A stretch of DNA of 64,000 nt from the human T2T-CHM13v2.0 reference genome, Homo sapiens: the NCBI RefSeq assembly GCF_009914755.1, contig NC_060925.1. One strand, 5' to 3'. The notes beneath the pieces were generated by a model. That model had not been told where the DNA came from. It ran no database searches and saw only the letters and a list, made by a program, of their open reading frames with translations. Shown here one piece after another: positions 2,556-10,176 of the stretch (position 1 is the first letter of the stretch; every line of letters begins with the position of its first letter). The translations under genes and the position numbers were made by a program.

Positions 2556-2720
2556 TATCTCCAGAGGCAGTTGGATTTTTGTCAGCTGTTGGGGTGTTTA
2601 TTATCTTGATGCTGCTCCTTTTTCTCTATATTAATAAGAAGTTCTGTTTTGAAAATGTTGGCGGGTTTCCAGATCTTGGTTCAGAATACAGTACAAGGAA
2701 GAATTCACAAGATAAAATTT
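2556..2720 (+). CDS. SYT14: SYT14 coding exon encoding the N-terminal transmembrane segment ((V)SPEAVGFLSAVGVFIILMLLLFLYINKKFCFENVGGFPDLGSEYSTRKNSQDKI); 165 nt, phase 1-1
   Basis: Acceptor ttttttttctctag at 2542-2555 and donor gtaagt at 2721. Translation matches my recollection of human synaptotagmin-14 (hydrophobic TM followed by NKKFCF). Splices in frame to 9961 (T|AT = Tyr). Confidence 0.95.
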
Positions 2721-3789: not shown

Positions 3790-4280
3790 ATGACAACTTT
3801 GTACTTTTAAATTTTATTGAGTAGTCCCAAAGAGCTTTTTGTTTATGTGGATTATATCTATTGATATGTACCATATTAGAGTTAAAACTGAGAAAATTTA
3901 AAAATATTATTTACCAATTTAAAACAGAAAATTTAAAAATATTATTAATTTATTTTTTTAAAAAAACAAGACTATTACATGTTAATATAAATATCATCTT
4001 TAAATTTTACAAAACTATTTTCCAAAACAAAAAGAAAATGGGGAAAAAGTGGTGAGAAGAGTGATTTTGTTTTATACTTTTTACAAATCTTTTTAATGAC
4101 TAGCATAATGGAAGACAGCTGGATTCTCATTTCTGCCTCTACATTCAATCTGTCATGTAGCCTCTGGATAACTCCAGTGTTCACTTGTGAGCCAATGAGA
4201 ATGAAAAAGTTAAGTACTCCCTTGCTGTTATTGTAAAACTAGTCTTGACCTTGAGGATCCCTTGAAAATGTCTCAGGGAA
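3790..4280. mobile_element. hAT-Charlie DNA transposon relic (Charlie4a-like)
   Basis: ttattgagtagtcccaaagagctttttgtttatgtggattatatctattgatatgtaccatattagag resembles the recalled Charlie consensus; subfamily unverified. Confidence 0.5.
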
Positions 4281-4926
4281 CTTAATTTTTCTGAGCCTTG
4301 TTTTTCTTTCACTTATTAAATAGGAATAATAATATTTACCTCCTAGAATTACTGTAAAATCAAGTAGGATAAAATGTGTCAATTACAATGCCTTGCATAT
4401 AGTAGCCACTCAGCAGGTGTCCACACTTCCTCTCCCCTATTCTTACCACTATGCAAAATTGTTTAGATATTTCTCTTTAATATTTTTCTTAATGTGAAAT
4501 GATACTGGGTAGTTTATTAGTAAGATAGGGTAGTTCCCTTACGTAGACTGTTAATAAGCAAACTAAAAGTACATAATAAAAATCCTTTTTATACTTCTTT
4601 TTTCAGGTGTAGAATAAAAAACCAATAGTATTTGAGGGAAAAATATTGTCTTGCTGCTGTTATAATAGCTGTGGAGTGAGAAAAAATGTCATAACGTTTA
4701 AACCAAGTGGTTTGATTTTTTTTTTCCGGAAGAATCTTTACTTCAACATATTTCTTTCAATGCATAATGTATTTACAGAAAGATTAAAAGCTACAATGTG
4801 AATTGCTAATATTGAGCTGACGAATAGCAACATTTAAGTAAATGTTAAATTCAAGTTCCAAAGTGGTTGATATTTTCAGAAGAGAAAATTCCATTATTGC
4901 ACCTTTTAGGAACAAGGAATTAGAAA

Positions 4927-6022
4927 ATGGCATTTTTCAGAAATTTCCAACAGAATCTGCCTTCAGTGTCCTCTCTAGTAGACACAATCAGTAGTGCTGT
5001 AGAGGATTTGACCACTGCTGTTGGGGAGGTCAGCTATGCTTTAACTGACTCAGTTGCTGAGCAGGTAACAAGTATGATGAGTGGCTTTCGCCCAGAAGAG
5101 GAAAGCTCTGTAGCAGAAGAAGCTGTAGACACTTCTAAACAAAAAAATGCCGGGTTAACAGAAGTCTCCAAAAACACTAATTGTCAGAAAACACAAGCCA
5201 ATTTAGAGCATAGAGCAAAGCAAATAAATACTTGTAAAACTTCACTAAAGCAAGATCAAGGAATACATGAAGAAAGAGTATTTAAACATGTTAATGATAG
5301 GCAACAAACTCTATCAGAATATCAAGACACTGGTAATACTGGTGATTCTTCTTTGAAAGGCTACATGAATAATGGTGGGATATCAGTTATCAGACAGAAT
5401 ACAAGGGCTGGATCTATTTGTCAAGAACTTGAAAGTACTGACAGATGTAAAACAATTGGAGTAGGAATTTCCAATAATGGTAAGAATGATTTAAAGGAGG
5501 TAGGATATCAAGAAATGAAAGGAAATCAGAAGAATGCCAACGGAATAAACAAATTGTATGAGCAAAAGAAATATGTTGGTACAGATAATTGTAAAAAGGA
5601 GGAATATTCTAAATCTCGACATGTATATTTGGGAAGAGATCAAGAGAATATGGGGCATTTCAATAAATGTAAACATCTTCCCGATTTAGGGCATTCAGAT
5701 CATTTAAAGAAAGCTGAAAAATGTGTTAAAAGTAAAGCATCCAAAGGGAATGAGTGTTCAGGAAATGAATGTTCTTTAAAAGATATTTTGACAAGCAATA
5801 GGCATATGACACAGAAATCTATTATAAAAGAAGACATACATCCAGCACCATCAACTAATTCTAAAGATAAGTTATCTGGGAAAATTGAAGAACAAATAAA
5901 TTCAACGAAATACTGTAAAGTGAACGAAGACATAAAACCAAAGAAAACTGAGGCCATTTCTGCCAAGAAAGGAACAGCAAAGAGTAAAGATGAAAAATAT
6001 TCTAAGATAATACCAGAAAAAG
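4927..6022 (+). CDS. SYT14: Large alternative coding exon of SYT14 giving a new TM-less N-terminus (MAFFRNFQQNLPSVSS...IIPEK, 365 codons + 1 nt)
   Basis: 369-codon ORF in AT-rich non-repetitive DNA; Kozak aaaATGG; in-frame TAG at 4921-4923; donor AAG|gtgagg at 6022/6023 in phase 1, joining exon 9961 in frame (G|AT = Asp, then NSYMDKDE). Confidence 0.8.
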
Positions 6023-7053
6023 GTGAGGTCTCCTAATGTTGGTGTGAGTGATTAAATTTTCTCTTGATTTTTTTAAATTAGTAAAACATCATCCAAATTT
6101 CTCAGCTTTCCTGTTCATGTGTCTATATTTAAGACTTTCTTGAATCCTTTTACTGGGAAACATTTTTAAAGCCATTCAGTATTTTTTCTAAAATCATTTC
6201 AAGAGCATTCATGTTATTTGTCCCACTAAGTATTGCCCCTGGTCCCTGCATTATTTGGCCAACTTTTCAGCAGCCCTAGTTTTTCTTAATGTCCATTTAT
6301 TTTACAACCAGAAACTCCATGGTTTTCTTACCTGCTTTATTTGGAGTTTATTTGATGTGCTGTAGTTGCATTTGAAATTTTTATATAACTAACTCTGAAG
6401 CCCTTTATACAGTATTGCTCTTTGCATCTATCCAAATTTATATCAAATGTTTAATTATTTCTTTGAGAGCAATAGATTTTATTTTATTCAATAATGTGGT
6501 TCACAATGTATTTTTATTCATTTCGCCCATACATTAAAAATTTTATATTACTGCCCTGTTTACAATAAGTATACGTGAATAATCTATTATTATTCATGAG
6601 TTCTCTATGTAGAATTAGGATTCTGACTAAGCATTTATAGTTTTCAATCACAGTATTTGTGATAATTTTCATTATTCACAGTATATGTGATAATTTTCAA
6701 TATTCATTAGCAGCTCATACTGCTAATAATTACTTCTGGTAATCCCTTAGTCATATCCACTTATTGCTGATCTGATCACAAGGCCAAAAGTACACTGGCT
6801 TTTATTTATAAAATACACATCTGGAATTTTTCTCTAAGTTCATACTCTCGTAAAATAACAAAAAGCAGAATAGCGGTAATGAGGAAGACTTTTCAGTTCT
6901 GCTACGACTACATACATAATAGGGATCTGCTATTTATCTATTATATGAGTGGTTTTACAGTGATATAGGAGAGGCTAATCCAGGATGGATGAACTAACTT
7001 AAAAGAAATGTCAGTTTCTGAAAATGTATCCATTTTGGAGTCTATTTTTCTAG

Positions 7054-9960: not shown

Positions 9961-10176
9961 ATAATTCCTACATGGACAAAGATGAGCATGGTTCATCCTC
10001 TGAAAGTGAAGATGAAGCGCTGGGTAAATATCATGAGGCCTTATCCAGAACACACAATTCCAGACTACCACTGGCAGATTCTAGACAAAGGAACTATGCT
10101 TGGGAAACAAGGCAGAAATACAGTCCTCTATCGGCAGAGTATGATGGATACAGTAGTGAAGCATCAATAGATGAAG
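9961..10176 (+). CDS. SYT14: SYT14 coding exon, cytoplasmic linker (NSYMDKDEHGSSSESEDEALGKYHEALSRTHNSRLPLADSRQRNYAWETRQKYSPLSAEYDGYSSEASIDE); 216 nt, phase 1-1
   Basis: Acceptor ...gtcattccaaatag ending at 9960 and donor GAAG|gtaaga at 10177. Peptide matches recalled SYT14. Confidence 0.95.

What the first reader, a model, noticed from the sequence alone, without database searches (positions are those of the whole stretch)
4927..6022. Hidden 1.1-kb coding exon gives SYT14 an alternative, transmembrane-less N-terminus
Seen: a 369-codon ORF in AT-rich, repeat-free intron sequence. It has a strong Kozak context (A at -3, G at +4), an in-frame TAG 6 nt upstream, and an AAG|gtgagg donor at 6022/6023 whose phase (365 codons + 1 nt) fits exon 9961 exactly (G|AT AAT TCC = D-N-S). 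The upstream stop means it cannot extend the TM-exon frame, so translation must start at 4927. Known: canonical SYT14 is TM-linker-C2A-C2B, and its closest paralogue SYT16 lacks the TM. Inference: a long SYT16-like isoform in which 365 new residues replace the roughly 75-residue TM-bearing N-terminus. It is not in the canonical protein I recall, but it may already exist as a predicted GENCODE/RefSeq transcript; I cannot check this.
Basis: partly seen in the sequence, partly recalled or inferred. Interest (0 to 1): 0.85.

Follow-up and report, generated by a model that had tools for sequence, protein, structure and literature searches.

The report
Known alternative SYT14 start exon
This long open reading frame is a real, deeply conserved alternative first coding exon of the human SYT14 gene that replaces the membrane anchor with a long soluble head, but public gene annotation already lists it, so it is not a new discovery.

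Summary
There is a 369-codon ORF at 4927-6036, with a Kozak A-3/G+4, an in-frame TAG 6 nt upstream, and a donor AAG|gtgagg at 6022/6023 in phase 1, matching exon 9961. Chance does not explain it: the longest open frame in 100 shuffles was 190 codons, and codon periodicity gave chi2 73 against at most 19 in 55 control windows.

It is not hidden. RefSeq already has exons 4104-6022 and 4607-6022, and a protein named 'synaptotagmin-14 isoform X3 [Homo sapiens]' carries the 365 residues at 100% identity. The same N-terminus is modelled in 74 listed mammalian and 46 listed sauropsid clusters, and in teleost syt14 and syt14b.

Only the first ~58 residues are strongly conserved (71-76% human to reptile/bird). 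They are predicted to form one long, acidic, Ser/Thr-rich amphipathic helix almost free of Lys/Arg. Residues 59-365 form a fast-evolving, indel-rich, Lys-rich, probably disordered spacer.

SYT16 has the same exon order (TM exon, then TM-less start exon, then common exon, phase 1). Sequence homology between the two N-termini was not detectable.

I found no paper describing this isoform. Verdict: genuine, already annotated, functionally unstudied.

The parts
2556..2720 (+). Canonical SYT14 exon encoding the transmembrane segment. It ends in phase 1. Its reading frame cannot continue into the long exon.
   Evidence: Hub table. The translation is SPEAVGFLSAVGVFIILMLLLFLYINKK...QDKI|Y. One search shows that joining 2720->4607 stops after 3 codons.
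4104..4926 (+). 5' leader of the RefSeq alternative exon 4104-6022, probably an alternative first exon. It has no coding signal and carries 15 upstream ATGs.
   Evidence: Hub table (exons of other transcripts). One search lists the uATGs. One search gives a periodicity chi2 of 1.4. The region is CpG-poor (0-3 CpG per 250 nt).
4607..4926 (+). Shorter leader, used when the exon is entered through the acceptor ttttttcag|GT at 4606/4607. It has 5 upstream ATGs, and the one at 4842 overlaps the main start out of frame with a weak context.
   Evidence: Hub table (exon 4607-6022).
4921..4923 (+). In-frame TAG two codons upstream of the start codon.
4927..5100 (+). Start codon and codons 1-58: the conserved N-terminal module. 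It is predicted to be a helix (residues 2-9 and 11-53), amphipathic, acidic, Ser/Thr-rich and almost free of Lys/Arg.
   Evidence: conservation; AlphaFold2 helix; hydrophobic moment, heptads, composition.
5101..6022 (+). Codons 59-365 plus 1 nt: a fast-evolving, Lys-rich spacer with lineage-specific indels and no predicted structure. It ends in phase 1.
   Evidence: divergence and length variation; composition: K 15%, net charge +14; no secondary structure, pLDDT < 50.
5745..5774 (+). In-frame 15-nt tandem duplication (GNECS GNECS) inside the spacer.
   Evidence: Both copies are also present in the gibbon, lemur, mouse and cat proteins, and one copy in marmot.
6023..6028 (+). Splice donor GTGAGG.
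   Evidence: The exon end at 6022 appears in both RefSeq alternative exons (hub table).
9961..10176 (+). Common SYT14 exon, joined in phase 1 by either the TM exon or the long exon.
   Evidence: Hub table.

Best explanation
Positions 4927-6022 are the coding part of a genuine, already annotated alternative 5' exon of SYT14. Transcripts that start at about 4104, or that enter through the acceptor at 4607, are translated from ATG 4927 and spliced 6022->9961. The product has the shared SYT14 linker and two C2 domains, but 365 different residues replace the ~75-residue N-terminus that carries the transmembrane segment. The new N-terminus has two parts. Residues 1-58 are a module conserved across bony vertebrates. 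They are predicted to be one long amphipathic helix with a Val/Leu/Ile/Ala face and a Ser/Thr/Asp/Glu face, and almost no Lys/Arg. Residues 59-365 are a weakly constrained, Lys-rich, disordered spacer. It is shown that the ORF, the splice phase, the annotated proteins, the conservation pattern and the helix prediction all exist. It is inferred that the helix is the functional element standing in for the membrane anchor. It could do so as a partner-binding or self-associating helix (my preference, about 0.45, because its acidic residues are conserved). Alternatively it could be a reversible membrane-binding amphipathic helix (about 0.3). In either case the spacer would hold the Ca2+-independent C2 pair at a distance.
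For: ORF, Kozak context, upstream stop, donor and phase.

Non-random ORF length and codon periodicity confined to 4927-6021.

Annotation: the hub table lists exons 4104-6022 and 4607-6022. In one search, 211 proteins had E <= 0.001 among 4207 candidates. The top hit is 'synaptotagmin-14 isoform X3 [Homo sapiens]' at 100% identity and 100% cover. The 120 listed are 74 mammalian and 46 sauropsid clusters. The clear majority are named synaptotagmin-14; the rest carry generic or hypothetical-protein labels. Of these, 114 of 120 start MAFF at or near residue 1.

The junction and downstream SYT14 sequence are present in the stored proteins, and the C2 domains are confirmed.

Identity to human, as residues 1-58 / 59-365 / shared part 366-670: macaque 98/92/99.7%, mouse 86/52/94%, opossum 90/41/95%, turtle 76/21/93%, gecko 71/17/89%. 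The windowed profile agrees.

A profile of the first ~70 residues found 42 representatives at E <= 1e-3 among 1.84 billion, and 38 of them carry the motif. All 8 that also matched the C-terminal SYT14/SYT16 references were closer to SYT14 than to SYT16.

A profile of 14 non-amniote-like N-termini found 538 proteins. Every organism-named row among the 120 listed is a teleost syt14, syt14b or syt14-like protein, or a hypothetical or C2-domain protein. The zebrafish protein has the same junction to the common exon.

Helix: AlphaFold2 predicts a helix at 2-9 and 11-53 (mean pLDDT 61), and at 2-9 and 14-51 in the 694-aa model, with no structure from 55 to 549. The hydrophobic moment of residues 13-53 is 0.326 against a shuffle mean of ~0.10 (1 of 5000 shuffles reach it, 0 of 5000). 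There are five heptads of the form x-[VIL]-[ST]-[ST]-[AL]-[VL]-x, and opossum has an exact 7-residue insertion. In residues 8-52 of 24 sequences, K+R is 0.7%, D+E 13% and S+T 27.5%.
Against: I could examine no RNA-seq, CAGE, Ribo-seq or mass-spectrometry data. Transcription and translation rest on RefSeq models (the label 'isoform X' means a predicted model) and on conservation.

The leader is unfavourable for translation. It has 15 upstream ATGs from 4104 and 5 from 4607, and one overlaps the start out of frame.

Residues 59-365 evolve almost as fast as I would expect for unconstrained sequence (8.5% amino-acid difference human to macaque; the neutral rate is recalled, not computed).

The protein databases only show species in which a model could be built. 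The shorter versions in cetaceans (265-268 aa), dugong and tenrec (242 aa) could be deletions or partial decay patched over by gene predictors.

The AlphaFold2 confidence for the helix is only moderate.

No known domain, solved structure or Atlas cluster matches the N-terminus, so its function is unsupported by homology.
Confidence: 0.88

Rival explanations
1. The exon is transcribed, but its transcripts are essentially non-productive: regulatory, decay-prone or poorly translated. On this view the ORF is annotated only because prediction pipelines choose the longest ORF.
For: The leader is rich in uATGs: 15 or 5, one of them overlapping the start. The human protein carries a predicted-model name. 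The 2010 manual synaptotagmin collection lists seven human SYT14 variants and none has this N-terminus.
Against: A 365-codon frame in 35% GC sequence cannot persist without selection. Residues 1-58 are 71-76% identical between human and turtle, emu or gecko, and are recognisable in teleosts. Codon periodicity is confined to the ORF.
Confidence: 0.06
2. The long exon is really an internal coding exon of a TM-containing protein (TM segment, then helix, then spacer, then C2 domains), not an alternative start.
For: Three models join the TM exon in frame to the MAFF exon or read through into it. They are a RefSeq model of Megalops cyprinoides (P0277), an ab initio Apodemus model (P0046) and one unnamed representative (P0270).
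Against: In human both possible joins hit stops. Splicing 2720->4607 gives ...DKICVE then a stop. The AG at 4908-4909 gives TGA, followed by TAG at 4921. In addition, 114 of the 120 listed amniote proteins start at MAFF.
Confidence: 0.02
3. Sub-mechanism A: the conserved helix is a protein-binding or self-associating (coiled-coil-like) module that recruits or oligomerises the TM-less isoform.
For: The heptad pattern is regular, with hydrophobic residues at positions 2, 5 and 6 over five heptads. Opossum has a heptad-exact insertion. The acidic positions D19, D27, D41 and E45 are invariant among amniotes, which suggests a specific basic partner.
Against: There is an invariant Gly33 in mid-helix. 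No coiled-coil family match was significant (best PDB E-value 0.24). The dimer prediction could not be run.
Confidence: 0.45
4. Sub-mechanism B: the helix is a reversible membrane anchor, i.e. an amphipathic helix that inserts into lipid-packing defects, as in the ALPS type. It would give peripheral rather than integral attachment to vesicles.
For: It sits exactly where the TM anchor is replaced. It is a ~40-residue amphipathic helix with a Ser/Thr-rich polar face and almost no Lys/Arg (0.7%). The SYT16 N-terminus is also strongly amphipathic (moment 0.462, 0 of 5000 shuffles).
Against: Acidic residues make up 13% and are conserved. Bulky aromatic residues are only 3% of the core. The net charge of residues 1-58 is -6, which should repel anionic membranes.
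Confidence: 0.3

Closest known systems
Predicted long SYT14 isoforms in RefSeq and Ensembl (for example 'synaptotagmin-14 isoform X3 [Homo sapiens]', and macaque, marmoset, horse and pig UniProt/Ensembl entries)
   Same: They are identical to this finding. The 365 residues, the junction and the downstream sequence are all present.
   Different: Nothing differs. The finding is this annotation. These are computed models, and I found no paper that characterises them.
Canonical SYT14 (TM, linker, C2A, C2B; NM_001146262.4 in the hub table)
   Same: Same gene, same strand, same exon 9961 onward, and the same phase-1 join.
   Different: The first ~75 residues, including the TM segment, are replaced by 365 residues without a hydrophobic span.
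SYT16 TM-less isoform (paralogue; Craxton 2010, PMC2823689, additional file 32)
   Same: The exon order in the human genome is the same: TM exon (chr14 contig ~56,177,391-56,177,663), then the TM-less start exon (56,203,277-56,203,799), then the common exon. The donor is in phase 1. The N-terminus is conserved and strongly amphipathic, and is followed by a variable acidic region.
   Different: No significant sequence similarity was found between the two N-termini. The HMM gave no hit to the exon (best E-value 2.8, elsewhere). hhalign probability was 0.2% and 1.8%. Local alignment against shuffles gave 361 of 2000 and 50 of 2000. The exon is half as long (174 against 365 codons), and the intron between the TM exon and the start exon is 26 kb against 2.2 kb.
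Short TM-less human SYT14 variants in Craxton 2010 (starting MLLLFLY..., additional file 33)
   Same: They also lack an intact TM N-terminus, and they come from the same region (RefSeq alternative exon 2641-2720 in the hub table).
   Different: They start inside the TM exon and add no new sequence. The long exon is absent from all seven human variants shown there.
ALPS-type amphipathic helices, such as the N-terminus of the golgin GMAP-210 (recalled, not tested by any search)
   Same: An N-terminal position, a long amphipathic helix, a Ser/Thr-rich polar face and near absence of cationic residues.
   Different: Here acidic residues are frequent and conserved, and bulky aromatic residues are rare. 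Membrane binding is untested.

Membership tests
SYT14 protein isoform | The exon lies inside the SYT14 gene on its strand and joins a constitutive SYT14 exon in frame. | tested here: met
   Hub table. One search shows phase 1 and 0 stops across the join. One search shows the exon-by-exon match of a long isoform to the chr1 contig.
SYT14 protein isoform | Tandem C2 domains downstream. | tested here: met
   Pfam C2 in 2 stretches, E 3.7e-25, in the full-length gibbon long isoform P0003. It is also found in zebrafish P0355.
SYT14 protein isoform | Transcript and protein evidence for the junction 6022->9961 in human tissue. | not testable with these tools
   Only the RefSeq exon table (hub) and predicted protein names were available. 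No read, CAGE, Ribo-seq or MS data were available.
Protein-coding exon under purifying selection | The open frame and sequence are kept across distant species. | tested here: met
   This was tested at the protein level only. No codon-level dN/dS was possible because no other vertebrate DNA is held.
SYT16-type TM-less N-terminus (homology by descent) | Same position and phase of the alternative start exon relative to the TM exon and the common exon. | tested here: met
   The SYT16 TM exon was found with E 1.9e-18, about 26 kb upstream of the start exon. The donor is G|GTAAGC in phase 1.
SYT16-type TM-less N-terminus (homology by descent) | Detectable sequence similarity between the N-terminal motifs. 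| tested here: not met
   the HMM against 5172 ORFs of the 200-kb SYT16 region gave no hit on the exon; hhalign probability 0.2% and 1.8%; 361 of 2000 and 50 of 2000 shuffles reach the observed score; the human genome holds no second copy at E <= 10.
ALPS-type lipid-packing sensor helix | A long amphipathic helix with a Ser/Thr/Gly-rich, charge-poor polar face and bulky hydrophobic residues. | tested here: inconclusive
   It is amphipathic, with S+T 27.5% and K+R 0.7%. However, D+E is 13% and F+Y+W only 3%. The definition of the family is recalled.
ALPS-type lipid-packing sensor helix | Curvature-dependent binding to liposomes. | not testable with these tools
   This is a bench assay.
Coiled coil | Heptad periodicity of hydrophobic residues. 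| tested here: met
   One search shows five consecutive heptads. One search shows a 7-residue insertion in opossum. The angular scan peaks at 100 degrees (0.326) and is lower at 105 degrees (0.137).
Coiled coil | Self-association. | not tested
   The complex-prediction job (two copies, alignment A1) was never accepted, because the queue was full.

The most novel reading that the evidence does not exclude
The first ~58 residues (the 'MAFF' helix) are an undescribed targeting or assembly module, conserved across bony vertebrates, that defines a peripheral, TM-less form of SYT14. In some cell types where SYT14 is expressed but unexplained (hair cells, Purkinje cells, endocrine cells, testis) this form, rather than the canonical TM protein, may be the working isoform. 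If so, variants in 4927-6022 would be coding variants that are currently read as intronic relative to the selected transcript.
Probability: 0.3. Interest if true: 0.5.

Novelty: already known. Interest (0 to 1): 0.22.

Why it matters
SYT14 is a Ca2+-independent synaptotagmin with unknown function. [quoted passage not shown]

An isoform that drops the membrane anchor changes what the protein can do and where it can sit. Its conserved N-terminal helix is a concrete handle for experiments.

In practice, 1.1 kb that is intronic in the selected transcript NM_001146262.4 is coding sequence in other models. This matters for variant interpretation and for isoform-aware expression analysis.

None of this is a new discovery at the annotation level.

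Tried and rejected
Chance ORF: rejected.

Repeat or transposon origin: nothing suggests it. The human genome holds no second copy at E <= 10, with 14 candidates scored. The chr4 SYT14 retrocopy matched only residues 680-836 of the long isoform.

Known domain in the 365 residues: Pfam gave 0 families at E <= 10, and only C2 in full-length proteins. A PDB profile search gave a best E-value of 0.24. The ESM Atlas gave no usable hit for residues 1-60 (one search had failed).

Homology to the SYT16 N-terminus: looked plausible by eye in Craxton's additional file 32 but failed every test.

Invertebrate TM-less Syt16 variants: the Ciona N-termini in Craxton's additional file 30, part 1 of 3, look unrelated by eye.

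Homodimer prediction of the helix (complex prediction, two copies of A1) never ran. The queue was full at six real attempts, and eight other hand-ins were not sent on. There is therefore no result either way.

Literature. Six full-text searches found no paper that describes this N-terminus. 'Strep14' returned only pneumococcal papers. Doi et al. 2011 (PMC3155161) is not held. I could not see Quintero-Rivera 2007 or Fukuda 2003, and they may describe SYT14 transcripts. PMC8527475 reports differential splicing of 'exon 4 of Syt14-205' in mouse endocrine cells (passages). I could not tell whether that is this exon.

Supplements of Craxton 2010. Files 1-12 were searched for two short peptides with 0 hits. 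Files S33 (part 1 of 3), S32 (part 1 of 2) and S30 (part 1 of 3) were read. The large vertebrate spreadsheet S3 was not.
Full report
OBSERVATION

- The ORF listing finds a 369-aa ORF at 4927..6036 on the + strand.
- The start context is GAAAATGG, and the in-frame codons before it read AAT TAG AAA.
- The ORF runs through a consensus donor, AAAAAG|GTGAGG, at 6022/6023. The stretch 4927-6022 is 1096 nt, i.e. 365 codons plus one base.
- Joined by coordinates to exon 9961-10176, it reads on without a stop as ...IIPEK|DNSYMDKDEHGSSSESEDE....
- The canonical TM exon 2556-2720 ends in the same phase (...QDKI|YNSYMDK). The two exons are therefore interchangeable partners of exon 9961.

The ORF is not a chance product of AT-rich DNA.

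- At 370 open codons it is the longest frame in the window; the next is 202.
- The longest frame in 100 shuffles of the window was 190 (mean 132).
- The expectation from base composition is about 5e-8 per window.
- Base composition by codon position gives chi2 73.1. The maximum in 55 equally long control windows is 18.8.
- The signal stops at the ORF borders: the leader 4104-4926 gives 1.4 and the downstream intron gives 5.0.

NOT HIDDEN

The hub's RefSeq table already lists exons 4104-6022 and 4607-6022 among the 15 SYT14 transcripts.

A search of 5.8 billion proteins with the 365 residues (longer-length band) gave 211 proteins at E <= 0.001 among 4207 candidates.

- The best hit, at 100% identity and full cover, is named 'synaptotagmin-14 isoform X3 [Homo sapiens]' (P0002, 694 aa). 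Its sequence contains the junction and the shared SYT14 region.
- The 120 listed rows are 74 mammalian and 46 sauropsid clusters. The clear majority are named synaptotagmin-14; the rest carry generic, unnamed or hypothetical-protein labels.
- 114 of the 120 begin MAFF at or near residue 1. The other six are two with one substitution (MALF, MTFF), three Tupaia models that start at an internal Met, and one Apodemus model discussed below.
- Macaque, marmoset, horse, cat and pig entries come from UniProt, so Ensembl-derived annotation has the isoform too.
- The X in the human name marks a predicted model. I cannot tell from these tools whether a curated NM record exists.

CONSERVATION PATTERN

Identity to human, given for residues 1-58 / residues 59-365 / the shared part 366-670:

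- gibbon 97/96/99.7%
- macaque 98/92/99.7%
- marmoset 95/86/99%
- lemur 90/75/99%
- marmot 91/65/98%
- Mus caroli 86/52/94%
- cat 91/55/99.7% (58 residues unaligned)
- opossum 90/41/95%
- turtle 76/21/93%
- emu 72/20/92%
- gecko 71/17/89%

A windowed profile agrees. It covers 12 primate, 42 other placental, 6 marsupial and 26 sauropsid sequences. Of the 90 proteins that carried both anchors, three Peromyscus isoforms that use an internal donor were left out of the groups.

The length of the N-terminal part varies widely:

- about 375 residues in primates
- 361-370 in many rodents
- 317-322 in carnivores, bats and ruminants
- 265-268 in cetaceans
- 242 in dugong and tenrec
- 379-390 in marsupials
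- 278-333 in sauropsids

The exon therefore consists of a strongly constrained head and a weakly constrained, indel-tolerant body. The body's rate (8.5% amino-acid difference human to macaque) is not far below what I would expect for unconstrained sequence. That comparison rests on recalled neutral rates, not on a computation.

HOW FAR BACK IT GOES

A profile of the first ~70 residues from ten amniotes (A1) was run against 1.84 billion cluster representatives. It gave 42 hits at E <= 1e-3, of which 30 were at <= 1e-10.

- 38 of the 42 carry the motif, nearly all at residue 1. The other four are repetitive, unrelated proteins.
- Eight of the 42 also matched the C-terminal part of SYT14 and SYT16, and all eight were closer to SYT14.

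That library has no names, so I aligned 14 of the divergent N-termini (A4) and searched the named database.

- 538 proteins reached E <= 0.001 among 8000 scored candidates.
- Every listed row that names an organism is a teleost. The names are synaptotagmin-14, -14b or -14-like, or hypothetical or C2-domain proteins.
- They include Danio rerio 'synaptotagmin-14 isoform X1'. Its N-terminal exon joins the common exon at ...AEEK|SYVNADYHCSSSDSDDE. This is the same point as in Craxton's zebrafish syt14a.

The TM-less start exon and its head motif therefore predate the split of ray-finned fishes and tetrapods, and also the teleost duplication into syt14a and syt14b. Several divergent unnamed representatives (P0243, P0246, P0256, P0259, P0271) could not be placed.

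WHAT THE HEAD LOOKS LIKE

AlphaFold2 on the ten-sequence alignment predicts a helix at 2-9 and 11-53, with mean pLDDT 61 and blocks up to 80. In the 694-aa human model built with 41 sequences, the helix spans 2-9 and 14-51. Residues 55-549 have no secondary structure at pLDDT below 50, and the C2A sandwich follows at 550-671. That whole model is of low confidence (mean pLDDT 41).

Residues 13-47 can be laid out as five heptads: SVSSLVD / TISSAVE / DLTTAVG / EVSYALT / DSVAEQV. Hydrophobic residues fall at positions 2, 5 and 6.

- The helical hydrophobic moment of residues 13-53 is 0.326 against about 0.10 for shuffles. One of 5000 shuffles reaches it, and 0 of 5000.
- Opossum carries an exact seven-residue insertion. 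Some fish carry four-residue insertions.
- Over residues 8-52 of 24 sequences, Lys+Arg is 0.7%, Asp+Glu 13%, Ser+Thr 27.5%, Val/Ile/Leu/Met 30% and aromatics 3%.
- The net charge of residues 1-58 is -6.
- Among amniotes, D19, D27, D41, E45 and G33 are invariant.

The body (residues 61-365) is 15% Lys, has a net charge of +14 and contains ten Cys.

No Pfam family, solved structure or Atlas cluster matches the head.

MECHANISM

What is shown: an alternative 5' exon with its own start codon replaces the TM-bearing N-terminus, and only its first ~58 residues are under strong selection.

What is inferred: the helix is the functional replacement for the anchor.

- I favour a partner-binding or self-associating helix (about 0.45). 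The reasons are the conserved acidic positions and the heptad regularity.
- The alternative is a reversible membrane-binding amphipathic helix of the ALPS kind (about 0.3). Its position, the Ser/Thr face and the lack of cationic residues fit this. The conserved negative charge and the scarcity of bulky residues do not.
- A prediction of the dimer could not be obtained.

RELATION TO SYT16

Craxton 2010 (PMC2823689; main-text passages) groups Syt14 with Syt16. The paper states that vertebrate Syt16 has forms with and without the TM, and that human SYT14 transcripts include TM-less forms. The seven human SYT14 variants in additional file 33 lack the long exon. The TM-less ones start MLLLFLY inside the TM exon.

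In the human genome, SYT16 shows the following:

- The TM-less start exon lies at chr14-contig 56,203,277-56,203,799, with donor G|GTAAGC in phase 1.
- A TM exon lies about 26 kb upstream (phmmer E 1.9e-18 against the SYT14 TM exon).

The order TM exon, start exon, common exon, and the phase, are therefore the same in both paralogues.

The SYT16 head is also conserved from human to snakes and is strongly amphipathic (moment 0.462, 0 of 5000 shuffles).

Sequence homology of the two heads is not supported:

- The A1 HMM gave no hit on the SYT16 exon among 5172 ORFs of 200 kb. The best E-value, 2.8, was elsewhere.
- hhalign gave probabilities of 0.2% (A1 vs A2) and 1.8% (A4 vs A2).
- Local alignment scores were reached by 361 of 2000 shuffles (human pair) and by 50 of 2000 (turtle against snake).

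'SYT16-like' is thus right for architecture and probably for how the protein works. Common descent of the exon remains open.

POINTS AGAINST AND RIVALS

- The leader is poor for translation: 15 upstream ATGs from 4104 and five from 4607. The last, at 4842, overlaps the start out of frame but has a weak context.
- Three models place the exon behind the TM exon in one frame: a Megalops cyprinoides RefSeq model, an Apodemus ab initio model and one unnamed representative.
- In human this is impossible. Splicing 2720->4607 stops after three codons. The AG at 4908-4909 would create TGA and is followed by TAG.
- I saw no expression, ribosome or peptide data.

LITERATURE

Six full-text searches turned up no description of this N-terminus.

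- Passages in PMC13069148 and PMC8164606 confirm that SYT14's function is unknown. They also report that it is expressed in hair cells and Purkinje cells and is linked to ataxia.
- PMC8527475 reports regulated Syt14 splicing in mouse endocrine cells. I could not map its 'exon 4' to this exon.
- Fukuda 2003, Quintero-Rivera 2007 and Doi 2011 were not available (for the last).

VERDICT

However, it is already in RefSeq and Ensembl-derived annotation across vertebrates.

- the two-part anatomy of the exon;
- the depth of conservation of the head, back to the bony-vertebrate ancestor;
- its physicochemical character;
- the matching exon layout in SYT16, without detectable sequence homology.

Noticed in passing
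L013:5277-5799 (G000 C14:56,203,277-56,203,799) and C14:~56,177,391-56,177,663: Human SYT16 has the same layout as SYT14. A TM exon is followed, 26 kb downstream, by a TM-less start exon that ends in phase 1. The two start exons show no detectable sequence similarity.
   Followed up: yes
window 5745-5774: There is an in-frame 15-nt tandem duplication (GNECS GNECS) in the variable spacer. Both copies are present in gibbon, lemur, mouse and cat, and one copy in marmot, so it is old rather than human-specific.
   Followed up: partly
proteins P0083, P0079 and other bird models of 717-744 aa: Some bird isoforms join the long N-terminal exon directly to the ...ANCIQRMR exon. They skip the exon that corresponds to window 9961-10176.
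   Followed up: partly
proteins P0073-P0075 (Peromyscus): Some rodent models use a donor inside the long exon (...HPDK|DNSYMDRD). This gives a 182-residue version that keeps the helix but drops half of the spacer.
   Followed up: no
proteins P0277 (Megalops cyprinoides), P0046 (Apodemus speciosus), P0270 (unnamed): These models have the TM exon and the MAFF exon in one reading frame, so in some species the exon might be internal. Human has two stops that forbid this.
   Followed up: partly
proteins P0259 and P0271 (unnamed representatives, 276 and 282 aa): These are divergent copies of the head motif, followed by a Gly/Ala/Pro-rich sequence with no SYT14-like part. Their origin and meaning are unknown. 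The human genome has no such second copy.
   Followed up: no
window 5062-5070: A strong donor-like CAG|GTAACA lies inside the conserved helix, between codons 46 and 47. No protein model I saw uses it.
   Followed up: no
G000 C4:71,505,757-71,506,221 (- strand): The chr4 SYT14 retrocopy (SYT14L in Craxton 2010) matched only the C2B part, residues 680-836 of the long isoform. It does not contain the long exon.
   Followed up: partly
window 4070-4077: A TATA-like TTTATAC lies about 30 nt upstream of the RefSeq exon start at 4104, in CpG-poor sequence. This is compatible with a tissue-restricted internal promoter but is untested.
   Followed up: no
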